From Candidatus Poribacteria bacterium (GTDB taxonomy: Bacteria; Poribacteria; WGA-4E; WGA-3G), in the NCBI GenBank assembly GCA_022821725.1, contig JAJEDB010000018.1:30467-94466 (forward strand): a stretch of 64,000 nucleotides of DNA. Reading direction: 5' to 3'. Below are positions 1 to 9,595 of this stretch, one piece after another. Below the pieces are notes generated by a model. It was not told the origin of the DNA. It did not search any database and saw only the letters and a list, made by a program, of their open reading frames with translations. Positions within the stretch are counted from its first letter, which is position 1, and every line of letters begins with the position of its first letter. A program made the translations under genes and the position numbers.

Positions 1-1190
1 TGTTCAATGTCGCCATCCTGTTGATCACCGTCAAGAATAAAGAGGGTGTTTTGCAGTTGACCGAATTTGTCTAAAGCCCGGGCGTGCATCGGAAACTCGC
101 TTGCCCCGGTATCACGTCCGATGTGGATGGACTCCCACTTAATTCTTTGATTGGATAACAACAAATCAAACACACCTTTTAAAATTCCCTCAGCGATTTC
201 ATCTTCACAGAGCAGTTTCAAGACTTCACTGGAGCGCCCATAAAGCGCGTTCTGAATCACGTCTCGATATGGAAGACGGACGACAATTTTGCCTGACTCC
301 TCGTCTCGATCAAGAAAAATGCGACCGCGGGCGGGGACTGCGTCAAGAACAACTGGACTGTGAGAAGTGACGATGATCTGGAGATCGTTCCGCAGTGCTA
401 ATTGCTGCAGATGCAACATGAGCAGTTGCTGCACCCAAGGATGTAGTCCAGCTTCCACTTCGTCAATCAGAACCAGGGCCCCTTCCAGCTGTGCTATCTC
501 TTTTGACAACTGCAGAATCGCACGCTCCCCAGCCGCCATGTGTAGTTCTGAGTAAGCAGCACCGCCTTCTTGGGCAGCAAACAAGAGATTCTTATTTCCG
601 CTGGACAGATTAACAACTTCCGAATACCTGAAAGGGAGCATCTGATGTGCAAACGCAATTTGTGAAGGAGTTAAGGGGGTCTCTTCCGGTTCAGATTTCA
701 GACGCGACATGCTGAGAACCCCACGCACTTCTGATGGATTGCTCAGATTGCTCAGCGTTCTGAGATAGACCTGTCGCTCCGGTTGACTTGCATTCTGACG
801 ACCCAGGAAGCTCCGACTCCACCCCTTGGCACGCCGCCATCGCATAGAACGCATGCCTTCTGGGGTCTGATAGTTGAATTCCAGCGTTATTCTTTGTAGG
901 CTATCCTGACGGTCCCCGAGTTTAGGACTATAATATGGGAAAAGTGTGGACGGAACGAAATCCTTAGGGCCTGCTCCCGGCACTTTATAGGCGCACGCAG
1001 CTGTAAAAAGCACTGTTGATTTCCCAGTCGCATTTCCCCCGGCAATGACACTCACTGGATAATCAAACAGCACCCGCAAATCGTCAAGTCCACGAAGTCC
1101 ATCTAAGTAAATCTCCGATAGAAAATGCGGTAGATGTGGTTTTTTCCCTTGTAAGCTGTCCCAGAGTCCTTCTAAGCGTCTCTCAATCAT
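1..1190 (-). CDS. OLD-family-like ABC/AAA ATPase with C-terminal TOPRIM-like region (3' end cut by window edge)
   Basis: Absent from the ORF track because it runs off the left edge. Reverse-strand translation from ATG (complement of 1188-1190) stays open to base 1: MIERRLEGLWDSLQ... Motifs: Walker A GGNATGKST, signature-like AAGERA, Walker B LVLIDEVEAGLHP, H-loop TSHSP, then LLCEDEIAEGIL and LFILDGDQ (Glu plus DxD, TOPRIM-like). Confidence 0.75.
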   Translation of the reverse strand, partial: MIERRLEGLWDSLQGKKPHLPHFLSEIYLDGLRGLDDLRVLFDYPVSVIAGGNATGKSTVLFTAACAYKVPGAGPKDFVPSTLFPYYSPKLGDRQDSLQRITLEFNYQTPEGMRSMRWRRAKGWSRSFLGRQNASQPERQVYLRTLSNLSNPSEVRGVLSMSRLKSEPEETPLTPSQIAFAHQMLPFRYSEVVNLSSGNKNLLFAAQEGGAAYSELHMAAGERAILQLSKEIAQLEGALVLIDEVEAGLHPWVQQLLMLHLQQLALRNDLQIIVTSHSPVVLDAVPARGRIFLDRDEESGKIVVRLPYRDVIQNALYGRSSEVLKLLCEDEIAEGILKGVFDLLLSNQRIKWESIHIGRDTGASEFPMHARALDKFGQLQNTLFILDGDQQDGDIE

Positions 1191-1284
1191 AAGTTATCCC
1201 CTTCGTGCAAGTGCCTTTCTTTTCTTTAATCCTGGGCATATTACCGTCTCGATCTCAACCAGAAGTTACGACTCTGGCTGTATC

Positions 1285-2826
1285 TTAATCCACTTTTTCT
1301 GATTTCAGACTCGTCAAGGCAGTCTTCCCTTTATGCGTCAGGCGGTATTTCTGTAGGCGACTATTGGGTTTATCTGGCAGTGTATATTCAATCATCTGGT
1401 CAGCTAAGAGCGTCCGCACAACCTTATTCAGGGGGCCAGAGATTGCCCTTTGCCCTAAGTTTCTGGACAATTCAGATTTTTGCATTGGACCCTTGGCAAG
1501 TAAGTTTAGTACTCTCGACTTGAGTTCTCTGGGCTGTGACTCTGGTTGTGACTCTGGTTGTGACTCTGGCTGTGACTCTGGCTGTGACTCTGGCTGCACC
1601 TTGATCGGCTCCGGAGGTGTAGCACGCCAGATCGTTGTCTTAAATCCACTGATGTCAGTGAATTCCGGTTCGCGTAAGTTAGCATCCCCGCATCGACGGA
1701 TCATGTCTAACGTTCCTGTCCCCATCTCTTCAATGTATTGAGTGAGGTATAAGGACCGAGCAAGCAATCGGTTGTTGGGTACCGATGGGTGCGTGTCTCG
1801 CAGTTGTTCCAGAGTCAAGGAGGGTGGCAGTCTGCCAGGATTCAATATCTCAAGCCGATCTGAGAAGAGCATCACTTGGACGCTGGCATTACTGGTATAG
1901 TCCCGATGTGCTACGGCGTTGACGATCGCCTCCCTTACAACTTCTTTCGGGATCTCATAGCTAACAGGGGCTTGCACGCTTTCTGCGCGTGTCCCTACCG
2001 ACAGGGCGATCTTGCTAAGCACAAAATCCACGGCTTGATCGACGAGTTGAAATGCTGTGCCCTTGTAGATTTGGTAGGACGGGATGGGTTTCGCAACCTC
2101 TGTTCCATGGAAGTGCGCGCATTTAACCTCCGAGGAAATTAGAAACTGCTGTGGTGCTTTCCCAAATGCCAGCACTGCCGCGTTGGTTGGGCGTCCATCG
2201 TTTAGCAGATTGAGATGAACCAATAACTCTTCGGTTGATACACCTTCAGTTAGCGGAAACTCCCTGGCACTCCGTGCCGTTCGGATAAACCAGCCCATCT
2301 GATCGGTGTCAAGATCATCCAACGATGCTTTTGAACAGGGTGCCGCATCAAAAGGTTCAGAACGGACGAGGTCTTGATTGTCTAAGTATTCGACTAACGC
2401 TGCGTAGAGTGCCGTTATTAACTCTTCCGACGTGTTGAATCGTTTTCGGATGAGTCCGGCTTGTGCCTTACGAATAAGTGCTTGCATCTTCGGTTGCCGA
2501 GCGCTGTCATCTGTCCCTTTTACAAAAATCAGACGATGGATACCGGAAGTGGTTGCCTGATCGAACTCCCGTTCTGTCGGTGATATTCCCTCTGCATCCT
2601 CCGATCCGTAGTCGTTACCGAACAATCCCACATAGACATCCGACTGCTTAACCTCATCCAAATAGAGGTCATCCGGACGACGATCTAATGCCGGAACGTC
2701 TTCAAACAGAAAAACATCAAAGAACCGTCGCATCAACGGATCACTGAGTAGATAGGTGCGTAGTGCCGCGCGTTCCTGCGCTAATTCTCTTTGAACACTG
2801 CTGATAAAAATACGGATAGGGTTCAT
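1285..2826 (-). CDS. DUF4062-type N-domain fused to HATPase_c_4-type putative DNA-binding module and wHTH-like tail
   Basis: 513-aa ORF. N-terminus IFISSVQRELAQER..VYVGLFGNDYG..SPTEREF is DUF4062-like. The C-terminal half has EVVREAIVNAVAHRDYTSN..LEILNPGRLP..YIEEMGTGTLDMIR, typical of the RecG-like/'ATP-binding' regulator family. A PESQ x5 linker separates it from the tail. Confidence 0.8.
   Translation of the reverse strand: MNPIRIFISSVQRELAQERAALRTYLLSDPLMRRFFDVFLFEDVPALDRRPDDLYLDEVKQSDVYVGLFGNDYGSEDAEGISPTEREFDQATTSGIHRLIFVKGTDDSARQPKMQALIRKAQAGLIRKRFNTSEELITALYAALVEYLDNQDLVRSEPFDAAPCSKASLDDLDTDQMGWFIRTARSAREFPLTEGVSTEELLVHLNLLNDGRPTNAAVLAFGKAPQQFLISSEVKCAHFHGTEVAKPIPSYQIYKGTAFQLVDQAVDFVLSKIALSVGTRAESVQAPVSYEIPKEVVREAIVNAVAHRDYTSNASVQVMLFSDRLEILNPGRLPPSLTLEQLRDTHPSVPNNRLLARSLYLTQYIEEMGTGTLDMIRRCGDANLREPEFTDISGFKTTIWRATPPEPIKVQPESQPESQPESQPESQPESQPRELKSRVLNLLAKGPMQKSELSRNLGQRAISGPLNKVVRTLLADQMIEYTLPDKPNSRLQKYRLTHKGKTALTSLKSEKVD
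1535..1594. repeat. 12-nt tandem repeat x5 (TGTGACTCTGGY) encoding PESQ x5
   Basis: Five head-to-tail 12-nt units read directly in the sequence, in frame inside CDS 1285..2826. Confidence 0.9.
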
Positions 2827-2906
2827 TGTTCAGTTCTTACCTTCTGGTATAGCGCTAGTTCGACTTATGATGGATTATGAATGTAAGTGGACATTCGAGG
2901 TTAATT

Positions 2907-2976
2907 GACATAGCACTCCGCTGGAGTGCAGCTTAATGACACTCAATATTCTATAGACATATCGCTCCGCTGGAGC
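2907..2976 (-). repeat. Two units of hairpin + ATATGTCTATAGAA family (inverted orientation)
   Basis: The reverse complement reads GCTCCAGCGGAGC-GATATGTCTATAGAAT and GCACTCCAGCGGAGTGC-TATGTC. Same family as 3181-3259 and 9516-9595. Confidence 0.8.
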
Positions 2977-3180
2977 AAGGAGACCGATTTTTTAGACTAC
3001 CACTTTCAAATCTTGCATGTATATTAGGGCTTACACATTTCCTCTTAAAGTCCCCTTGATAAGGGGGATTTAGGGGGTTAGATAAGACGAAATAACGAGT
3101 TTTGAGCGAAATATATTCTTTTTTTGTTCAATTTGCGTAAGTTCTGTATGTGTTTATGCGTCTGTTGGATGCTCCCTCCT

Positions 3181-3259
3181 CACGCCGAAGGCGTGATATG
3201 TCTATAGAAAATCGTATCGACGCCACCGCACTCCAGCGGAGTGCTATGTCTATAGAAAA
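3181..3259 (+). repeat. Two units of hairpin + ATATGTCTATAGAAAA family
   Basis: CACGCC-GAA-GGCGTG + ATATGTCTATAGAAAA, then GCACTCC-AGC-GGAGTGC + TATGTCTATAGAAAA. Confidence 0.85.
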
Positions 3260-3308
3260 CAGTAAATCCTGATTCAGGCAAAAGGCACAGCAAACACCAA
3301 GCATCCCC

Positions 3309-3356
3309 AATCCGCGTTAATCCGTATCATCCGTGCAAATCCGCGATTCAGACAAC
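3309..3356 (+). repeat. ATCCGYG...ATTCAGACAA repeat family copy overlapping the hsdS 3' end
   Basis: AATCCGCGTTAATCCGTATCATCCGTGCAAATCCGCGATTCAGACAA. Related copies at 33178-33230 and 61966-62070. Confidence 0.7.
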
Positions 3357-4468
3357 CGCACCCGCCCCGTGAGAAGCTGCTGCATCATCCCCTGTTTGAT
3401 GGCGCGTGTCTTGTCCCTTCGCTGCTCCAACGCCGCAATCTCGGCATCTATATCAGAGAGGACAGAGGCGATGGCGCGTTGTTCTGCTATATCCGTCGGT
3501 ATGGAAAAAGAAAAATTCTTGAAGGTTGGCAGACGTAATGAATCAACGGTTGCCTTTACTGTATTTTGCATAGCATGGCTACCAAATTGCAAAACCATGA
3601 TATAATAGACCAACTTACCATAAACGTCTTTCACAAACCGGTTGATCATATAGACGCGCTGATGACAGTCGAAACGACCATTGATGTAATGAAAAATGCT
3701 CTCAATTCCGCCTTCACCGGGAACAAGAATTGCCTCACCGTCATAGCAATAACTATTAATTCGTTCAACAATTGGCGATCGAACGAAAAAAGAATATTGC
3801 CCATCCTCCACTTTGTCTTCGTTGTTTCGACCGCCCGTTTTGATATGGGCAATCTCCCCCAACCGCTTTGTCTCCCACACCCCACTAAACCCCGGCAGGC
3901 GCGTCTTACCCGTCAGCAGTTGCTGCATAGTGGCTTGCTTAATCGCCTGCTTCTTGGCGATGAGTGCCTCCAACGCATTGATCAACCTATCCACATCTGA
4001 TAATGCTTCGGCAATGGCGCGTTGTTCTTTCTCATCGTCAGGGACGCGAAGTCGAAATTGTCCAACTTGTTCCGAGTTTGCCGCGGTAAATGTGCTACCT
4101 TGTTCTAAAGATTGCCATCGATCTTCTGCATGAACCAAAGCGTGGAATAGAAAACTTGAGTTTCCAAAAGGTTTCAGTCCGCATACCCCACGTCCAATAC
4201 ATGCGTTCTTACTCGCAACGGCGACAGCACCAACAGGCGCGCGGACGGTAAGTATTAGGTCCCCTAAATTACAACGTTTGTTCCCTTTGGTGGTCCATAC
4301 GCGTTCTATTGTCTTTCGGGATTCAATATCGGCATTCCCTTGAATTAACGGCAGTCCTTCACCACGTGAATTGTAAAATATTGAAGATGGCGATTGCCCC
4401 ATTGTAATAATTGCAAGATCAGAAAGCGGTTTTTCAGACCACTTTCCGCTAAAGCATGGATTGACCAT
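3317..4468 (-). CDS. hsdS: Type I restriction-modification specificity subunit HsdS
   Basis: 383 aa with two TRD halves, each followed by a conserved helix (AIAEALSDVDRLINALEALIAKKQAIKQATMQQLLTGKTRL and AIASVLSDIDAEIAALEQRRDKTRAIKQGMMQQLLTGRVRL). The ATG lies 1 nt after the hsdM stop. Confidence 0.9.
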   Translation of the reverse strand: MVNPCFSGKWSEKPLSDLAIITMGQSPSSIFYNSRGEGLPLIQGNADIESRKTIERVWTTKGNKRCNLGDLILTVRAPVGAVAVASKNACIGRGVCGLKPFGNSSFLFHALVHAEDRWQSLEQGSTFTAANSEQVGQFRLRVPDDEKEQRAIAEALSDVDRLINALEALIAKKQAIKQATMQQLLTGKTRLPGFSGVWETKRLGEIAHIKTGGRNNEDKVEDGQYSFFVRSPIVERINSYCYDGEAILVPGEGGIESIFHYINGRFDCHQRVYMINRFVKDVYGKLVYYIMVLQFGSHAMQNTVKATVDSLRLPTFKNFSFSIPTDIAEQRAIASVLSDIDAEIAALEQRRDKTRAIKQGMMQQLLTGRVRLSESRICTDDTD

Positions 4469-4469
4469 A

Positions 4470-6920
4470 TCACGCCACCCTCATTTTCCGCAAATGCGCC
4501 TCAACCTTTTCACTAAACGCCTCCACCTCTTGTGCCAACTCAGGCAACGGATCTGCGTAGCGTTCCTCCAATTCCTTTACACGTTCCGTAAGTGCTTGGG
4601 TCAACCGCTGGACTTCCCCATCAATTGCTGCATGAATACTGGCGAACCATTTATCCGCAACCACAAGTATCTTGATGTCATCCGCAGTGAGCATAGCATA
4701 GCGCGCCAGCACCTGTTCATCGAGCGCGAGTTGCGCATCTTTTACTGTTTTGTCCGCTTTCGATTTTGCATCGAGTAGCGATAGGCAGTGCTCAAGGGCA
4801 TCCCGTTCATCGTCGTTGTCTTGCATCTCGTGGAGGGTTAGCATATCGGGAGTAAGTGTCTTGAGACGTGCCTTCACACTGCTGGCGGTGATACTGCCAC
4901 TATTGTTAGTTGCATCTGTGAGCAATCCTTCATCACCGGTGTGTTCCTCGATGTATTCGTCTAATGCACTCACAGCCGCCGCTTGCCTCGCTTGCAACAT
5001 CTCAATAGCTTCCTGCTCAGCCGCGAAATAGCGTGCAACGATCAACGCAGGCGGAATCAGGTCCATCTTATATTTCTTTTTCTTGATGACAAGGTCAGGT
5101 GTCTCCTGCACCTGTCTGTCCTGAATCACTTCGCGCGGTTTCGCAGCTGCAACCCATCCGTCCGCAGCGATGAGATAAACGTCGTCCTGCATCACCGCGT
5201 CCCAATAGTCCATCAGTTTCTGATAGACATCATAAGCGTCGAGCAGGGGCAGCCCTGTGAACTGCTCTAACAGATCCTCTGAGAGCGTTTGAACGATTTC
5301 CCTCGGAGAAGCGTCAACCGCAATACCTGTCAGGAGCGGTTCGTGTGTCTCGCTCCACGCCTGACAGACAGTATCGACCTGCTGTTGGTAGGCGTTGAAT
5401 TCGGGATGCGTGAGGATAGTCGTTTTTACGTGCTGTGTTTCTACGAGCGGATCGCTGTAACCGGGTCTACCGTTACCTTTGAAGAGTGTGTCGCGGAGTG
5501 TTGGAAAGACCCTCCAATAGTCGTTGAGTGCGTCGATATCGGTATCAGGAATGCCTCCGTTGAGGTGTGCGCCGAGGTCGTGCACGTCTTCGGGTTCACT
5601 TGCATCAATATAACGTGGGATATTCAGGTTATAGGCGTTCGCGAGGTCAGCGATTTCGGAGAGGGACACCATGCGCGAGTAGCGCGGTAATTCTGTCTGT
5701 TCATTGAAAACCGAAACGATTTTATGGATGTCCTGGGCGCGGAGTCGGTTTTTGTTACCATCCTTGAGGAACCCTTTACTTGCATCAATCATAAAGATAC
5801 CAGTGCGATGTGCGGCGTTCTCCTTGTCAATCACGAGGATACAGGCAGGGATCCCAGTGCCGTAGAACAGATTCGCAGGTAGACCGATGACCCCCTTGAT
5901 ATAACCGCGTCGGATAATCTCTTTGCGGATGTCTGCCTCTCTGTTGCCGCGGAATAGCACGCCATGGGGTAAGATGATAGCACCTTTGCCCCTGCTTTTG
6001 AGCGAGGTGATGAAGTGGAGCAAAAAGGCGTAATCGCCATTTTTCGCGGGCGGAACCCCGTATTCAAAACGGTTGTAAACGTCGTTCTCAGGGGTGAGTC
6101 CGTTGGTCCACGCTTTATCCGAGAAAGGTGGATTGGCGACAGCGAAATCGAAGGTTCTGAGCCTATCACTATCTGTGAAATCGGGTGCAGCAAGCGTGTT
6201 CCCGTGTCGTAAATCAGCCGTGGCGTTGTCGTGGAGGATCATGTTCATACAGGCGAGTGCGTATGTTGCATTGTCTTTTTCCTGTCCGTAGATACTCAAC
6301 CCACGCGGTGCGGCATCGGCAGCCCGGAGCAGGAGTGAGCCGGAGCCGCACGCAGGATCGTAAATCGTTTCATCCTGCGAAGTGTCGGGACCGATACCGA
6401 TCACCTGTGCCATGATGCGGGAGACCTCAGCCGGTGTATAGAACTGTCCTTTGCTCTTACCGGATTCAGTGGCGAAGTGCTGCATGAGGTATTCGTAAGC
6501 ATCGCCTAAGAGGTCGTCGCCTTCCACCCGATTGGCTCGGAAATCGAGGCTCTCGAAGATAGCGACGAGTTTTGAGAGCCGATCTTGCATCTCTTTGCCG
6601 CTGCCGAGTTTGCTGTCGTCGTTGAAATCCGCCTGATCGATGATGCCTTTGAGGTCGTTCTCCTCGGCGAGTCTTCCGATGATTTTGTTAAGCTTATCTC
6701 CGATATCTTTATCGCCCTTGAGGGTGACCATATCGGCGAATCCACCGCCTTCGGGGACGAAGATAAGCGAATCTGGATCGCTGGCGGCTTTGTCGGAAAC
6801 GTATTTCATGAAGAGGAGTGTCAGGATGTAATCTTTGTATTGGGAGGCATCCATCCCGCCGCGAAGTTCGTCGCAGCTTTGCCAAAGCGATGCATAGAGT
6901 TGTGATTTCTTTATCGCCAT
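4470..6920 (-). CDS. hsdM: Type I restriction-modification N6-adenine DNA methyltransferase subunit HsdM (long form, ~330-aa C-terminal extension)
   Basis: 816 aa. N-terminus LWQSCDELRGGMDASQYKDYILTLLFMKYVSD. SAM motif YDPACGSGSLL. Catalytic motif FAVANPPFS. Confidence 0.95.
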   Translation of the reverse strand: MAIKKSQLYASLWQSCDELRGGMDASQYKDYILTLLFMKYVSDKAASDPDSLIFVPEGGGFADMVTLKGDKDIGDKLNKIIGRLAEENDLKGIIDQADFNDDSKLGSGKEMQDRLSKLVAIFESLDFRANRVEGDDLLGDAYEYLMQHFATESGKSKGQFYTPAEVSRIMAQVIGIGPDTSQDETIYDPACGSGSLLLRAADAAPRGLSIYGQEKDNATYALACMNMILHDNATADLRHGNTLAAPDFTDSDRLRTFDFAVANPPFSDKAWTNGLTPENDVYNRFEYGVPPAKNGDYAFLLHFITSLKSRGKGAIILPHGVLFRGNREADIRKEIIRRGYIKGVIGLPANLFYGTGIPACILVIDKENAAHRTGIFMIDASKGFLKDGNKNRLRAQDIHKIVSVFNEQTELPRYSRMVSLSEIADLANAYNLNIPRYIDASEPEDVHDLGAHLNGGIPDTDIDALNDYWRVFPTLRDTLFKGNGRPGYSDPLVETQHVKTTILTHPEFNAYQQQVDTVCQAWSETHEPLLTGIAVDASPREIVQTLSEDLLEQFTGLPLLDAYDVYQKLMDYWDAVMQDDVYLIAADGWVAAAKPREVIQDRQVQETPDLVIKKKKYKMDLIPPALIVARYFAAEQEAIEMLQARQAAAVSALDEYIEEHTGDEGLLTDATNNSGSITASSVKARLKTLTPDMLTLHEMQDNDDERDALEHCLSLLDAKSKADKTVKDAQLALDEQVLARYAMLTADDIKILVVADKWFASIHAAIDGEVQRLTQALTERVKELEERYADPLPELAQEVEAFSEKVEAHLRKMRVA

Positions 6921-7103
6921 ATTTGAATCCTTTCTTGGGGTATTGAGGGAAGTATACCAAAGGCGACTGATTAAGTCAACAGGTTTAGGAGGGTGTTAGG
7001 GAGTCATTCAGTTTTCGGTTTTCTGATTGTTTTGGGCAGAGTATCGCGACCGGGAGGTCGCTCCTACAGCAGAGTCGTGTATGATTATCTCTGCCCGTCT
7101 TTT

Positions 7104-7418
7104 TTAGAGGTTTAGCCATTGACGCACAGCATCTTCAACTGTGGATAATTGCGCAGGCTGAAGATTTCCCAATTTTCTCAAGAACTTTGCTTCTGATACT
7201 GTGACCAAACTTTGTGCATCGAAAACACCGGTATCCAGAAATCTCGTTTTTATAGGGATTTCAAATCTTGAACCACGCGCGCTCGTTGTATGCGTGACAA
7301 CGGTGACGAGCGCGCGATCTTGGAGACGAGCAGAGATGCTAATGACGAGGCAAGGTCTGACCTTGGCTACCATTCCGAGATCAACTAACCAGACTTCCCC
7401 TCGATTTTGCTTCGGCAT
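7104..7418 (-). CDS. PemK/MazF-family type II toxin
   Basis: MPKQNRGEVWLVDLGMVAKVRPCLVISI..VTVVTHTTSARGSRFEIPI. I start it at the internal ATG (7418), which has a GGAG upstream, rather than at the longest ORF start (7463). Confidence 0.8.
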   Translation of the reverse strand: MPKQNRGEVWLVDLGMVAKVRPCLVISISARLQDRALVTVVTHTTSARGSRFEIPIKTRFLDTGVFDAQSLVTVSEAKFLRKLGNLQPAQLSTVEDAVRQWLNL

Positions 7419-7602
7419 CCTCTGTCTCCATTTTGTCGTGTTCAGCGAAAAGTGCGTCAGCAATTTCCGTGAGTGCCTCGTCTGTCAAGGGTGGAATCTC
7501 CAGCAAAGCTACTTGCTTTATGATTTCAGAGGCGATCGCATGTTTTTCAATCTCAGGAAGTTGATTGAATGCTTCTAATATGTTCTGTGAGGTTGCATGC
7601 AT
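7381..7602 (-). CDS. Putative antitoxin (small acidic protein upstream of and overlapping the MazF-like gene)
   Basis: ATG at 7602 has GGAGG 6 nt upstream; the ORF-track start at 7629 is TTG. The gene overlaps the toxin start by 38 nt. I do not recognise a MazE/AbrB motif. Confidence 0.55.
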   Translation of the reverse strand: MHATSQNILEAFNQLPEIEKHAIASEIIKQVALLEIPPLTDEALTEIADALFAEHDKMETEDAEAKSRGSLVS

Positions 7603-7622
7603 CCGGGACCTCCATAAATCCG

Positions 7623-8678
7623 CTACCAATCCTCATCAAAGAACGGCGTGCTTGGGTAGCTATAGACTCCGCCTTCATAGTTGCGGAGTTGGATTTCGTC
7701 GTCATCAAAGGCGACAACCGGATTAGGAATCAGCGCAATCTTCCCACCGCCACCAGGGGCATCCACGACGTAATGCGGCACACCCAGCCCAGAGATATGC
7801 CCACGCAACGCCGCAACGATGTCTAAGCCTGCTTGGACGGCTGTCCGGAAATGATCCGTCCCGACGACAAGATCCGCTTGATAGATATAGTAGGGCTTAA
7901 CGCGGATACGCAACAATCCTTTCATCAGTTCCACCATCACATCGGGATCGTCATTCACACCTTTCAGGAGCACAGTCTGGTTACCGAGCGGTATACCCGC
8001 ATCGGCTAACATCCCGCACGCCTTCTCGGTTTCCGGTGTAATCTCGCGCGGATGGTTGAAATGGGTGTTGATATAGAACGGGTGATGCCGTTTCAAGATC
8101 GCACACAATTCCGGTGTGATACGTTGCGGCAGCGTTACGGGGACGCGCGAACCGATCCGAATGATTTCCAGATGTTTAATCGCTCGGAGTCCCCCGACGA
8201 TCAGGTCAATCTTTTTATCCGTCAACATGAGCGGGTCGCCACCGGAGATGATGACATCCCGGATCTCTGGATGCGCCTGAATATAAGCAAGTCCTGTCTC
8301 AATGTTATCTTCGGAGATGGAGTGTGGGTCCCCGACTTTCCGTTTCCGAGTGCAGAAACGGCAATAGATGGGACACATGTAATTGACATAGAAAAGTGCC
8401 CGATCGGGGTAGCGATGTGTTACGTTTGGCACTTCGCTATCGTCTTCTTCGTGCAGTGGGTCCTCTACCCCGGTACTTATCAATTCTCTTGGATCAGGAA
8501 CGACCTGTTTCCAAATCGGATCACCGGGTTCTTCTATGAGACTCAGGTAATAAGGATTGATACGGATTGGGAACTCTTTGTGAATCCGCTGCATCTCCGC
8601 TAAGTCAACGTCAAATGCAGCAGCGAGTTTTTCTGGAGTGTTGACAGTATCTCTGACGAGTCGTTTCCATTCTTCCAT
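7623..8678 (-). CDS. KamA-family radical SAM protein (lysine 2,3-aminomutase-like)
   Basis: 351 aa. CPIYCRFCTRKRK (CxxxCxxC cluster), ISGGDPL, and YYIYQADLVVGTDHFR. Confidence 0.9.
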   Translation of the reverse strand: MEEWKRLVRDTVNTPEKLAAAFDVDLAEMQRIHKEFPIRINPYYLSLIEEPGDPIWKQVVPDPRELISTGVEDPLHEEDDSEVPNVTHRYPDRALFYVNYMCPIYCRFCTRKRKVGDPHSISEDNIETGLAYIQAHPEIRDVIISGGDPLMLTDKKIDLIVGGLRAIKHLEIIRIGSRVPVTLPQRITPELCAILKRHHPFYINTHFNHPREITPETEKACGMLADAGIPLGNQTVLLKGVNDDPDVMVELMKGLLRIRVKPYYIYQADLVVGTDHFRTAVQAGLDIVAALRGHISGLGVPHYVVDAPGGGGKIALIPNPVVAFDDDEIQLRNYEGGVYSYPSTPFFDEDW

Positions 8679-8707
8679 ATAGTAAGTCCGTCCTTTCCAA
8701 ATGCATG

Positions 8708-9241
8708 CTACGGTGCGACTGTGTAGTTTTCGATCGTCACGCTGGTCATAACATCCTGTTCACGGAGGGCATCTACCACATCCATGCCTTCAATAACTTT
8801 CCCAAACGTGGTGTAGCTCCCGTTGAGATGCGCATAAGGTGTTGGATCCGAGTTGATGCAGATATAAAATTGGCTTCCCGCGGAGTCAGGGTTCTGGGTC
8901 CGTGCCATCGCAACAACACCCTTTTCATGAACCGGCATCTTGTCGCGAAGTTCTGGATCTTGGAACTCACCCCGGATTGTCCATCCAGGTCCACCTCTCC
9001 CTGTTCCCTCTGGATCCCCGCCTTGGATAACAAAACCCGGGACGTGTCGATGGAAGATCACACCATTGTAGTATCCTGCTTCGATCAATCTCGCAAAATT
9101 CTCTACTGTGGTTGGAGCCGCTTCTGGGTAAAGTTCAATAATGATGTTTCCTTTTTCGGTTTCAATCGTTACATAAGGCAGTTGATTATTATTACATGAA
9201 ATAACTGCCGCGAAAAACGCGCCTAATAGACTAAATCGCAT
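8708..9241 (-). CDS. Cyclophilin-type peptidyl-prolyl cis-trans isomerase, probable lipoprotein
   Basis: FHRHVPGFVIQGGDPEGTGRGGPG and GVVAMARTQNPDSAGSQFYI. N-terminus MRFSLLGAFFAAVISC carries a lipobox. Confidence 0.9.
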   Translation of the reverse strand: MRFSLLGAFFAAVISCNNNQLPYVTIETEKGNIIIELYPEAAPTTVENFARLIEAGYYNGVIFHRHVPGFVIQGGDPEGTGRGGPGWTIRGEFQDPELRDKMPVHEKGVVAMARTQNPDSAGSQFYICINSDPTPYAHLNGSYTTFGKVIEGMDVVDALREQDVMTSVTIENYTVAP

Positions 9242-9515: not shown

Positions 9516-9595
9516 CACCCCAGAGGGGTGATATGTCTATAGAAAACGGCGTATTTAACCCCTGCACTCCAGCGGAGTGCTATGTCTATAGATAA
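9516..9595 (+). repeat. Two units of hairpin + ATATGTCTATAGAAAA family
   Basis: CACCCC-AGA-GGGGTG + ATATGTCTATAGAAAA, then GCACTCC-AGC-GGAGTGC + TATGTCTATAGATAA. Confidence 0.85.

What the first reader, a model, noticed from the sequence alone, without database searches (positions are those of the whole stretch)
1..2826. OLD-like ATPase/TOPRIM gene plus a DUF4062 fusion protein nested downstream of hsdM-hsdS: candidate restriction-linked defence module
Seen in sequence, four co-directional minus-strand genes run in this order:
1. hsdM.
2. hsdS.
3. After a repeat-filled 490-nt gap, a DUF4062-HATPase_c_4-wHTH protein.
4. 94 nt further on, an ABC-type ATPase whose C-terminal part shows a conserved Glu (LLCEDEIAEG) and DxD (ILDGD), like a TOPRIM or DUF4435/RloB domain.

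The ATPase gene is missing from the ORF track because it leaves the window. No hsdR is present in the window.

Established knowledge: type I R-M loci often carry 'restriction-linked' ORFs between hsdS and hsdR, such as the rlo genes. OLD-family ATPase-TOPRIM proteins are the core of Gabija, PARIS and retron-associated systems. DUF4062 occurs as an N-terminal module in defence-island proteins.

Inference: the two genes form an embedded accessory defence module. I do not know this particular DUF4062 + HATPase_c_4 fusion paired with an OLD-like gene as a named system.
Basis: partly seen in the sequence, partly recalled or inferred. Interest (0 to 1): 0.65.

Follow-up and report, generated by a model that had tools for sequence, protein, structure and literature searches.

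The report
Two defence genes inside a restriction system
Between the specificity and nuclease genes of a type I restriction system sit two separable anti-phage genes: a relative of the known HEC-04/IbfA ATPase-nuclease, and a widespread but unnamed protein that joins a recently discovered NAD-destroying domain to an ATP-driven switch.

Summary
All coordinates and both gaps (490 nt and 94 nt) are exact.

Extending the contig shows the full locus: hsdM-hsdS-[DUF4062 protein]-[515-aa ATPase]-hsdR-YgjP. hsdR starts 18 nt after the ATPase stop codon, just outside the window.

**ATPase.** It is an ABC-ATPase/TOPRIM protein of the HEC-04/IbfA kind, a single-gene defence with published experimental support. 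K57, E329 and D387/D389 align with the residues mutated in that work.

**DUF4062 protein.** Its N-terminal domain is the TIR-like NADase described in 2026 ("NIR"; Swarozyc, Evangelion, Vulcan). The rest is a GHKL ATPase (HATPase_c_4) plus a winged helix. The NADase sits exactly where the Schlafen AlbA_2 nuclease sits in "Schlatpase" proteins, so this looks like an effector swap.

**Are they a pair?** No.
- In 63 related loci the ATPase is next to the DUF4062 gene in only 11, on either side.
- The ATPase also occurs alone or with other cargo.
- The same slot elsewhere holds ThsB-TIR, Shedu, an AbiU2-like HEPN protein and others.

Best reading: two independent cassettes in a restriction-embedded defence hotspot. 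The NIR-GHKL-wHTH fusion is abundant (442 loci, many phyla) and is not named in the literature I could search. No function was tested here.

The parts
1..1190 (-). 5' 1188 nt (396 of 515 codons) of an ABC-ATPase/TOPRIM gene of the HEC-04/IbfA kind. The gene continues 358 nt beyond the window start.
   Evidence: Translation. The full gene is on the exact source contig at L001:11637-13184. PADLOC HEC-04 gives E 1.1e-39 over residues 20-477 against profile positions 23-455 of 494.
1014..1040 (-). Walker A motif GGNATGKST (K57)
   Evidence: Verified. K57 aligns with K62 of a canonical HEC-04 protein and K49 of IbfA.
438..476 (-). Walker B / D-loop LVLIDEVEAGLHP. The H-loop His277 lies at 360-362.
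   Evidence: This is the region that matches PtuA, AriA and OLD chains in the PDB.
24..206 (-). TOPRIM catalytic core: Glu329 (nt 204-206) to Asp387-Gly-Asp389 (nt 24-32)
   Evidence: Invariant in alignments A2 and A3. Aligns with E320/D376/D378 of a canonical HEC-04 protein and E318/D372/D374 of IbfA. Payne et al. showed that E319A/D375A/D377A abolishes HEC-04 defence.
1191..1284 (.). 94-nt spacer between the two cargo genes
   Evidence: No sigma-70 promoter or terminator consensus lies in the spacer; the nearest promoter-like match on this strand (1087-1059) is inside the ATPase gene, and matches overall are not above the shuffled expectation.
1285..2826 (-). Gene for the 513-aa NIR(DUF4062)-GHKL ATPase-wHTH fusion protein
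2377..2826 (-). NIR/DUF4062 TIR-like NADase domain (residues 1-150). The motif S-P-T-E85-R-E87-F lies at 2563-2583.
   Evidence: PF13271 E 6e-21. Matches the KpSwz DUF4062 structure 10wc_A at E 5e-6. Foldseek hits for the N-terminal domain: CMP N-glycosidase, DNPH1, NDT and the SARM1 TIR. Across the 56 of 60 aligned representatives that have a residue at these columns, E87 is kept in 53 and E85 in 46.
1627..2349 (-). Linker subdomain plus GHKL (HATPase_c_4) ATPase, residues about 160-400. N-box E299-A-I-V-N303 at 1918-1932, NPG at 1834-1842, EEMGTGT at 1711-1731.
   Evidence: PF13749 E 1e-19. Matches 3lmm_A over residues 283-408. The PADLOC pAgo and Aga models hit residues 154-333, which I attribute to the GHKL domain shared with SLFN-pAgo proteins. 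Motif conservation is at least 90% in 60 representatives.
1527..1596 (-). 12-nt tandem repeat, 5.8 copies, encoding (QPES)n in the linker before the wHTH. It accounts for 513 aa here against about 497 aa in most homologues.
1336..1515 (-). C-terminal winged helix (Fic-like_C)
   Evidence: PF21247 E 4e-10. Matches 4rgl_A. pLDDT is about 85 in the model.
2827..3316 (.). 490-nt gap between hsdS and the cargo genes, with four REP/MITE-like hairpin units (2904-2929, 2949-2975, 3176-3212, 3228-3257)
   Evidence: The same unit occurs at 9532-9592. No Rfam match.
3317..4468 (-). hsdS, with two target-recognition domains
   Evidence: Methylase_S E 3e-30 with 2 matched stretches. PADLOC Specificity_I.
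4470..6920 (-). hsdM, long 816-aa form
   Evidence: N6_Mtase E 1e-103 and HsdM_N. PADLOC MTase_I at 1285 bits.

Best explanation
The hsdS-hsdR interval of this type I R-M system, probably from a Candidatus Poribacteria genome, is a defence-gene hotspot. In this window it carries two independent single-gene anti-phage cassettes.

**Cassette 1: NIR(DUF4062)-GHKL ATPase-wHTH protein.**
- Shown: the N-terminal domain is a DUF4062 TIR-like domain and keeps the Glu motif.
- Shown: the GHKL ATP/Mg-binding motifs are intact.
- Shown: the domain occupies the position that the Schlafen AlbA_2 nuclease holds in 'Schlatpase' relatives.
[quoted passage not shown] That brings the NADase domains into an active assembly once the wHTH or linker region senses a phage cue. 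NAD+ is then hydrolysed and infection aborts.

**Cassette 2: HEC-04/IbfA-like ABC ATPase fused to a TOPRIM nuclease.**
- Shown: the Walker A Lys and the TOPRIM E/DxD are conserved and align with experimentally essential residues.
- Inferred: the ATPase senses infection and licenses nucleic-acid cleavage by the TOPRIM domain.

The two cassettes share a slot and probably the R-M operon's transcription, but neither needs the other.
For: **Locus**
- The exact contig gives hsdM-hsdS-NIR-ATPase-hsdR-YgjP.

**ATPase**
- HEC-04 profile: E 1.1e-39, 134 bits, about 88% coverage.
- That is the same distance as IbfA (142 bits). A canonical HEC-04 protein scores 719 bits.
- Catalytic residues align with those mutated in the HEC-04 paper.
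- The ATPase stands alone between KamA and Band_7 in L090/L091, at the same chromosomal site as in the window.

**NIR fusion**
- Pfam domain trio.
- KpSwz match.
- NDT/TIR-like fold for the N-terminal domain.
- 49 of 60 representatives at 50% clustering share DUF4062 plus HATPase_c_4. Five carry AlbA_2 at residues about 5-130 instead, and the homology to our protein starts right after it.
- GHKL E299/N303 correspond by motif and spacing (E-x3-N) to E314/N318 of RzAgo; they were not aligned directly.

**Independence and hotspot**
- Adjacency statistics.
- Contexts centred on the ATPase.
- Other cargo in the same slot: ThsB_TIR, TIR_2, SduA_C, HEPN_AbiU2, AAA_15+DUF3696 and DUF4209.
Against: - No function was tested. 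NADase activity, ATP-driven oligomerisation and nuclease activity are all inferred from homologues.
- Both AlphaFold models are poor overall (pLDDT 55 and 46). The GHKL and TOPRIM folds therefore rest on sequence profiles and motifs.
- Pfam finds no TOPRIM model in the ATPase.
- Seen from the ATPase side, an intact DUF4062 gene is adjacent in 6 of 11 contexts, with a remnant in a seventh. A facultative functional interaction is not excluded.
- The locus sample is the best 80 of 442. It is dominated by Poribacteria and is not corrected for phylogeny.
Confidence: 0.72

Rival explanations
1. The DUF4062 fusion and the OLD-like ATPase are an obligate two-gene defence system, with a sensor ATPase/nuclease and a NADase effector, nested in the R-M locus.
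For: - The genes are adjacent and co-directional with a 94-nt spacer.
- Adjacency recurs in L005, L010, L026, L081, L082-L084, L086 and L095.
Against: - The ATPase is adjacent in only 11 of 63 loci with a relative of the DUF4062 gene, and gene order flips: 7 upstream, 4 downstream.
- Five loci have the NIR gene as the sole cargo.
- The ATPase occurs alone or with unrelated cargo.
- One Poribacteria genome carries the two genes in two different R-M loci, L004 and L085. L085 also retains a degraded fragment of the NIR gene.
- The homologues of each gene that have been tested (HEC-04, IbfA, Swarozyc, Vulcan, Evangelion) all work as single genes.
Confidence: 0.08
2. The NIR-GHKL-wHTH protein is functionally tied to the type I R-M complex and acts as a PrrC-like guard. 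It is held inactive by HsdMSR and released when a phage anti-restriction protein disables the enzyme. On this view it is not an autonomous cassette.
For: - hsdR lies downstream on the same strand in 44 of 68 loci, and within 600 nt in 33. The R-M system always belongs to the same family, across bacterial phyla and in Methanoculleus.
- NIR identity co-varies with hsdM (Spearman rho 0.75) and hsdR (0.56), about as strongly as hsdR does with hsdM (0.72).
- PrrC sets a precedent for cargo found almost only inside type I R-M systems.
Against: - 24 of 68 loci have no hsdR downstream. L095 keeps an intact NIR gene beside a decayed R-M system.
- The identity correlations are confounded by shared phylogeny.
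- Other, unrelated defence genes use the same slot.
- There is no interaction evidence.
Confidence: 0.17
3. The DUF4062 fusion is not a defence protein. It would be a DNA-binding regulator or 'RecG-like helicase' of the R-M operon, as database names suggest ('transcriptional regulator', 'ATP-dependent DNA helicase RecG').
For: - Source annotations.
- A C-terminal winged helix is present.
Against: - There is no helicase domain. PF13749 is a GHKL ATPase fold.
- The N-terminal domain belongs to a family with experimentally shown NADase effector activity, and the Glu motif is conserved.
- Sister proteins carry a Schlafen nuclease in the same position.
Confidence: 0.03

Closest known systems
HEC-04 (PADLOC; Payne et al., bioRxiv 10.1101/2024.01.29.577857) and IbfA of IncI plasmids (PMC12111858)
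   Same: - A single polypeptide of about 500-520 aa: an N-terminal ABC ATPase and a C-terminal TOPRIM domain.
- The Walker A Lys and the TOPRIM E...DxD align with residues shown to be essential.
- Found embedded in another defence system.
- The best PADLOC hit covers nearly the full length.
   Different: - Only 24-26% identical to IbfA and to a canonical HEC-04 protein.
- Scores 134 bits against 719 for a canonical member.
- The host system is a type I R-M system rather than Hma or a plasmid.
- The C-terminal helical part of the protein (from about residue 420) aligns poorly with IbfA and the canonical HEC-04 protein.
Schlatpase proteins (SLFN AlbA_2 + GHKL ATPase, with or without an HTH; bioRxiv 10.64898/2026.05.29.728809)
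   Same: - Same linker, GHKL (PF13749) and C-terminal wHTH. The closest AlbA_2-bearing relatives among the representatives (P0287, P0315, P0383, P0387) are 39-52% identical over this region.
- Conserved E-x3-N ATP/Mg motif.
- Also found in Poribacteria type I R-M operons.
   Different: The N-terminal Schlafen nuclease is replaced by a DUF4062/NIR NADase. No AlbA_2 match was found, so the predicted output is NAD+ depletion rather than tRNA cleavage.
Swarozyc, Evangelion and Vulcan (single-gene DUF4062/NIR NADase defences, 2026 preprints)
   Same: An N-terminal DUF4062 domain with the conserved Glu motif, fused to a C-terminal region that those papers show is required for defence (for Swarozyc, portal sensing). 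They are single-gene, abortive-infection type systems.
   Different: The auxiliary region is unrelated. KpSwz matches only residues 5-137. Vulcan has HEAT repeats. None of the three texts mentions GHKL, HATPase_c_4 or a restriction context.
PrrC / RloC (anticodon nucleases embedded in type I R-M loci)
   Same: An ATPase-containing abortive-infection gene nested between the hsd genes of a type I R-M system.
   Different: The effector (NADase or TOPRIM) and the ATPase class are different. No homology was detected. Coupling to the R-M enzyme is untested.
OLD-family nucleases, GajA (Gabija), AriA (PARIS), retron ATPase-TOPRIM effectors
   Same: ABC ATPase plus TOPRIM logic. PADLOC ATPase-Toprim_I-B gives E 1.5e-20 and one GajA model extends into the TOPRIM region. 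The top Foldseek hit is OLD 6p74.
   Different: - No GajB, AriB or reverse transcriptase partner is in the locus.
- The Pfam TOPRIM_OLD model is not matched.
- PDB sequence hits cover only the Walker B to H-loop segment.

Membership tests
HEC-04 / IbfA | Near full-length match to the PADLOC HEC-04 profile (PDLC04149) | tested here: met
   E 1.1e-39, 134.4 bits, residues 20-477 against profile positions 23-455 of 494. IbfA, which its authors report PADLOC identified as homologous to HEC-04, scores 141.9 bits.
HEC-04 / IbfA | ABC-ATPase Walker A lysine equivalent to K62 | tested here: met
   K57 in GGNATGKST aligns with K62 of L088 and K49 of IbfA.
HEC-04 / IbfA | C-terminal TOPRIM metal site (E319, D375, D377 in the tested protein) | tested here: met
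   E329, D387 and D389 align with E320/D376/D378 of L088 and E318/D372/D374 of IbfA. They are invariant in 37 homologues.
HEC-04 / IbfA | Works as a single gene | tested here: inconclusive
   Genomic support only. The gene stands alone in L090/L091 and sits with varied neighbours elsewhere. There is no functional test.
HEC-04 / IbfA | Anti-phage phenotype | not testable with these tools
   Needs a phage challenge.
OLD family (Pfam TOPRIM_OLD; classes 1-4) | Match to a curated TOPRIM/OLD domain model | tested here: not met
   No TOPRIM family at E <= 1 in Pfam, either for the whole protein or for residues 321-515. NCBIfam gave only sub-threshold ATPase hits.
OLD family (Pfam TOPRIM_OLD; classes 1-4) | Structural similarity to solved OLD nucleases | tested here: inconclusive
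   The top Foldseek hit is 6p74 (E 7.8e-6), but TM is 0.21 and the model's pLDDT is 46.
DUF4435 / RloB | Match to the DUF4435 model | tested here: not met
   Not among the Pfam hits at E <= 1.
Gabija / PARIS / retron effector systems | Partner gene (GajB helicase, AriB, or reverse transcriptase with ncRNA) adjacent | tested here: not met
   The neighbours are hsdS, the NIR fusion, hsdR and YgjP. Rfam finds nothing in 1-8000.
NIR / DUF4062 NADase domain | PF13271 match above the gathering score | tested here: met
   74.8 bits against a cut-off of 24.7.
NIR / DUF4062 NADase domain | Conserved catalytic glutamate (KpSwz E97, PsAvs2 E108, Vulcan E98) | tested here: met
   - The motif SPTEREF aligns with KpSwz SFTEKAF.
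- The deposited chain has Ala opposite our E87. That fits the E97A construct used for cryo-EM.
- E87-F88 also fits the 'E-Y' motif.
- Across the 56 of 60 aligned representatives that have a residue at these columns, E87 is kept in 53 and E85 in 46.
- Which of the two Glu residues is catalytic is my inference.
NIR / DUF4062 NADase domain | TIR/NDT-like fold | tested here: met
   The N-terminal domain (pLDDT about 70-86) matches CMP N-glycosidase 4jen (TMt 0.70), DNPH1, NDT and the SARM1 TIR. The NIR paper lists the same classes of hit: a CMP hydrolase, ribosyltransferases and TIR domains.
NIR / DUF4062 NADase domain | NAD+ hydrolysis | not testable with these tools
   Needs a biochemical assay.
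Swarozyc | KpSwz-type auxiliary (portal-binding HTH) domain | tested here: not met
   The KpSwz match is confined to residues 5-137. The remaining roughly 180 residues of the 326-residue KpSwz chain (its auxiliary region) are unmatched.
Schlatpase (SLFN + GHKL) | GHKL ATPase domain PF13749 with the E-x3-N motif | tested here: met
   PF13749 at 70.8 bits. E299 is kept in 60 of 60 representatives and N303 in 59 of 60. Compare RzAgo E314/N318.
Schlatpase (SLFN + GHKL) | Schlafen AlbA_2 domain (PF04326) | tested here: not met
   No AlbA_2 hit at E <= 1. DUF4062 occupies its position. The relatives P0287, P0315, P0383 and P0387 do have AlbA_2 there.
Type I restriction-modification system | hsdM, hsdS and hsdR all present in one locus | tested here: met
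   Pfam and PADLOC matches for all three genes. hsdR scores 538 bits against TIGR00348.

The most novel reading that the evidence does not exclude
The NIR-GHKL-wHTH protein would be a new, widespread class of defence protein. In it, the ATP-driven GHKL oligomerisation switch of Schlatpases has been re-armed with a TIR-like NADase. It would act as a PrrC-style guard of a particular type I R-M family and fire when phage anti-restriction proteins disable the enzyme. If so, the small 'Schlatpase + HTH' proteins, which the Schlatpase preprint reports as the majority of its 60,692 SLFN+GHKL proteins, would be a modular family of R-M-linked abortive-infection sensors with exchangeable effectors.
Probability: 0.2. 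Interest if true: 0.75.

Novelty: new variant of a known kind. Interest (0 to 1): 0.5.

Why it matters
**Links between recent discoveries.** The locus connects three 2024-2026 findings: guilt-by-embedding defence discovery, DUF4062/NIR NADases, and the Schlafen-GHKL 'Schlatpase' switch.

**The effector swap.** A NADase replacing a Schlafen nuclease on the same GHKL-wHTH chassis is natural evidence that the chassis is a general sensor and oligomerisation module. It also suggests that the very abundant proteins annotated 'RecG-like' or 'transcriptional regulator' in R-M loci are immune effectors.

**Abundance and tractability.**
- The family is abundant: 442 loci in GTDB species representatives, and at least 49 clusters at 50% identity.
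- It is horizontally spread through sponge-symbiont phyla and methanogens.
- Its tight linkage to one type I R-M family makes the question of R-M-guarding systems, so far known mainly from PrrC, testable.

**The ATPase.** It is an ordinary new member of HEC-04/IbfA.

Tried and rejected
- **AlphaFold2 models.** Both were poor, probably because the alignments held only 74-100%-identical sequences (pLDDT 55 and 46). Only the NIR domain and the wHTH are usable. The Foldseek result for the ATPase is weak support at best.
- **Metagenome scan with the ATPase.** It returned only 3 loci. I ran the reverse co-occurrence test with exact-protein look-ups instead. One look-up, P0130, found nothing on record.
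- **Rfam.** No RNA family in 1-8000. The gap repeats are not a known riboswitch or a CRISPR-like array. They are dispersed hairpin units.
- **Promoter and terminator scans.** No consensus site in the 490-nt gap or the 94-nt spacer, and overall matches were not above the shuffled expectation. The operon structure stays open.
- **Catalytic Glu.** I first assigned it to E85 from the KpSwz alignment. I then revised this. The PDB chain carries Ala opposite E87, which fits the E97A cryo-EM construct and the 'E-Y' motif. Both Glu residues are present, so the conclusion does not depend on the choice.
- **Middle region.** I considered it a divergent AlbA_2 domain and rejected that. Pfam finds none, and the AlbA_2 domain of sister proteins lies N-terminal to the homologous region.
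- **Literature.** No paper in the library holds both PF13271/DUF4062 and PF13749/GHKL/Schlatpase. Figures are not searchable, so an architecture shown only in a figure panel cannot be excluded.

Full report
**Observation**

- hsdM: 4470-6920, 816 aa.
- hsdS: 3317-4468, 383 aa.
- A 490-nt gap.
- A 513-aa ORF at 1285-2826.
- A 94-nt gap.
- An ORF that starts at 1190 and leaves the window.

Pfam assigns DUF4062, HATPase_c_4 and a Fic-like_C winged helix to the 513-aa protein. It assigns AAA_21/AAA_15 to the truncated ATPase.

**Extending the locus**

A look-up of the exact 513-aa protein found its source contig: ENA ERZ23491298, scaffold_255, 103.7 kb (locus L001). On that contig:
- The ATPase is 515 aa.
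- hsdR (1044 aa; TIGR00348 at 538 bits) starts 18 nt after the ATPase stop codon.
- A YgjP-like metallopeptidase gene overlaps the end of hsdR.

The system is therefore a complete type I R-M system with two cargo genes between hsdS and hsdR. The nearest relatives of every gene are in Candidatus Poribacteria metagenome-assembled genomes, so the window probably comes from a sponge-associated poribacterium.

**The ATPase**

- Against PADLOC the full protein matches HEC-04 best: E 1.1e-39, residues 20-477 against profile positions 23-455 of 494. The next hit is the retron I-B ATPase-Toprim model.
- HEC-04 is an ABC ATPase fused to TOPRIM. It protects E. coli against T4 and T5, and K62A or E319A/D375A/D377A abolish defence (bioRxiv 10.1101/2024.01.29.577857).
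- IbfA of IncI plasmids is its studied homologue (PMC12111858).
- I recovered IbfA (L087) and a canonical HEC-04 protein from a Streptomyces plasmid (L088; 719 bits) from the plasmid collection.
- IbfA scores 142 bits on the HEC-04 profile and the window's protein scores 134. Both are equally distant members.
- In a five-way alignment, K57, E329 and D387-G-D389 align with K62, E320 and D376-G-D378 of L088, and with K49, E318 and D372-G-D374 of IbfA.
- Pfam has no TOPRIM hit.
- PDB sequence searches reach PtuA, AriA and OLD only over the Walker B to H-loop segment.
- The AlphaFold model is poor (pLDDT 46). The Foldseek top hit, OLD 6p74, is therefore only weak support.

Conclusion: this is a new, divergent member of the HEC-04/IbfA kind. 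It is OLD-like in logic, but it does not match the curated OLD TOPRIM model.

**The DUF4062 fusion**

Three 2026 preprints show that DUF4062 is a TIR-like NADase ('NIR'). It depletes NAD+ in the Swarozyc, Evangelion, Vulcan, Vesta and Avs2 defences, and a single Glu is essential.

*N-terminal domain.*
- Residues 5-137 match the solved KpSwz DUF4062 structure at E 5e-6.
- The modelled N-terminal domain (pLDDT about 70-86) matches CMP N-glycosidase, DNPH1, nucleoside deoxyribosyltransferase and the SARM1 TIR. The NIR paper lists the same classes of hit (a CMP hydrolase, ribosyltransferases, TIR domains).
- The motif S-P-T-E85-R-E87-F aligns with KpSwz S-F-T-E-K-A-F.
- The Ala in the deposited chain fits the E97A construct. 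E87 is therefore the likely catalytic residue.
- Across the 56 of 60 aligned representatives that have a residue at these columns, E87 is kept in 53 and E85 in 46.

*The rest of the protein.*
Pfam finds none.
- An exhaustive search with residues 151-513 found 13,783 relatives, of which 491 have E <= 1e-30.
- Of 60 full-length representatives, 59 carry HATPase_c_4, 49 carry DUF4062 and 5 carry Schlafen AlbA_2.
- In the AlbA_2 members, AlbA_2 spans residues about 5-130, and homology to our protein begins immediately after it.
- The NADase therefore sits exactly where the Schlafen nuclease sits in the 'Schlatpase' supradomain, which is SLFN plus a GHKL ATPase.
[quoted passage not shown] It also notes Schlatpase genes in Poribacteria type I R-M operons (bioRxiv 10.64898/2026.05.29.728809).
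- The GHKL motifs are intact here: E299-x3-N303, NPG and GTGT. Each is at least 90% conserved.
- The shared GHKL domain is my explanation for the otherwise odd PADLOC hits to pAgo and Aga models.

**Are the two genes a pair?**

A scan of one genome per GTDB species found 442 loci that encode relatives of the fusion. The best 80 span the following groups at 58-91% identity: Poribacteria, Vicinamibacterales, Thermodesulfobacteriota, Gammaproteobacteria, Spirochaetia, Nitrospira, Latescibacterota, Opitutales and Methanoculleus.

*Seen from the fusion gene.*
- hsdR of the same R-M family lies downstream in 44 of 68 loci with enough flank, and within 600 nt in 33.
- The ATPase is present in 13 of 63 loci. 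It is adjacent upstream in 7 and adjacent downstream in 4.
- In five loci the fusion is the only cargo.

*Seen from the ATPase.*
- An intact fusion gene is adjacent in L001, L082-L084, L086 and L095.
- It is degraded in L085 and split in L096.
- It is absent in L089 (a DUF5677 gene instead), in L092-L094 (a 372-aa gene instead) and in L090/L091.
- In L090/L091 the ATPase stands alone between KamA and Band_7, with no R-M genes. This is the same chromosomal site as in the window.

*Other cargo in the same slot.* ThsB-TIR, TIR_2, Shedu SduA_C, an AbiU2-like HEPN protein, AAA_15+DUF3696, DUF7380+DUF4209 and DUF1828.

The picture is a hotspot with exchangeable single-gene cassettes, not a two-gene system.

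**Mechanism**

*Shown.*
- Domain identities.
- Conserved active-site motifs.
- The effector-swap architecture.
- Embedding in the R-M locus.
- Separability of the two genes.

*Inferred.*
- The fusion is held inactive until a phage cue is sensed through the wHTH or linker. ATP-bound GHKL domains then oligomerise, the NIR domains assemble into an active NADase, and NAD+ depletion aborts infection.
- The ATPase-TOPRIM protein acts separately as an ATP-gated nuclease.

*Open alternative.* The fusion could guard the R-M enzyme, as PrrC does. Two observations favour this: the tight linkage to one R-M family across phyla, and identity correlations with hsdM (rho 0.75) and hsdR (0.56). Those correlations are confounded by phylogeny, and a third of the loci lack hsdR.

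**Novelty**

- The ATPase is a new member of a known kind.
- The NIR-GHKL-wHTH architecture combines two known modules in a way that the searchable text of the relevant papers does not name.
- Overall I rate the finding a new variant of a known kind, abundant enough to deserve a test.
- No experiment was done here, and the structural models are weak outside the NIR and wHTH domains.

Noticed in passing
window 7104-7629 (minus strand): A MazF/PemK-type toxin gene (119-aa ORF; PF02452, E 6e-13) lies immediately upstream of hsdM. An overlapping 73-82-aa ORF with no Pfam match precedes it and is probably the antitoxin. This adds a toxin-antitoxin pair to the island.
   Followed up: partly
window 2904-3257 and 9532-9592: A short hairpin-forming repeat unit (TCTATAGACATA followed by a GCACTCC-AGC-GGAGTGC palindrome) occurs four times, in both orientations, in the hsdS-cargo gap. 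Its core 12-mer occurs twice more in another intergenic region. That 12-mer matches 5 times in the window against 0.12 expected by chance. It looks like a REP/MITE-like dispersed element. No Rfam family matches in 1-8000.
   Followed up: partly
window 1527-1596: An in-frame 12-nt tandem repeat (5.8 copies) encodes (QPES)n in the linker between the GHKL domain and the winged helix. It makes this copy 513 aa, against about 497 aa in most homologues.
   Followed up: partly
L089, L090, L091 versus window 1-9241 / L001: The chromosomal site between the KamA-like radical SAM gene and the Band_7 gene is polymorphic among related Poribacteria. The window has R-M plus the NIR fusion plus the ATPase. 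L089 has R-M plus DUF5677 plus the ATPase. L090/L091 have the ATPase alone. The flanking genes are 82-95% identical.
   Followed up: yes
L002-L081, hsdS-hsdR intervals: The same slot in related type I R-M loci carries many other defence-type genes: DUF1828 (11 loci), an AbiU2-like HEPN protein (7), ThsB_TIR, TIR_2, Shedu SduA_C, AAA_15+DUF3696 and DUF7380+DUF4209. Transposases are also present. Several recurrent families have no Pfam match.
   Followed up: partly
L085:9561-10010 and L096:8574-10079: The NIR fusion gene is decayed in some genomes. L085 has a 127-aa called remnant ORF (tblastn matches a 162-aa stretch at 67% identity) between the ATPase and hsdR. In L096 the gene is split in two beside a degraded hsdM and a Y1 transposase.
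   Followed up: partly
protein P0243 (2918 aa): A giant representative protein carries two HATPase_c_4 and two Schlafen AlbA_2 matches plus several HTH domains. It is either a tandem multi-Schlatpase protein or a gene-calling fusion.
   Followed up: no
L001:16282-17058 (outside the window): A YgjP-like (SprT/WLM-like) metallopeptidase gene overlaps the 3' end of hsdR by 56 nt. It accompanies hsdR in most of the related loci that have hsdR, from bacteria to Methanoculleus. It appears to be a conserved fourth gene of this type I R-M family.
   Followed up: partly
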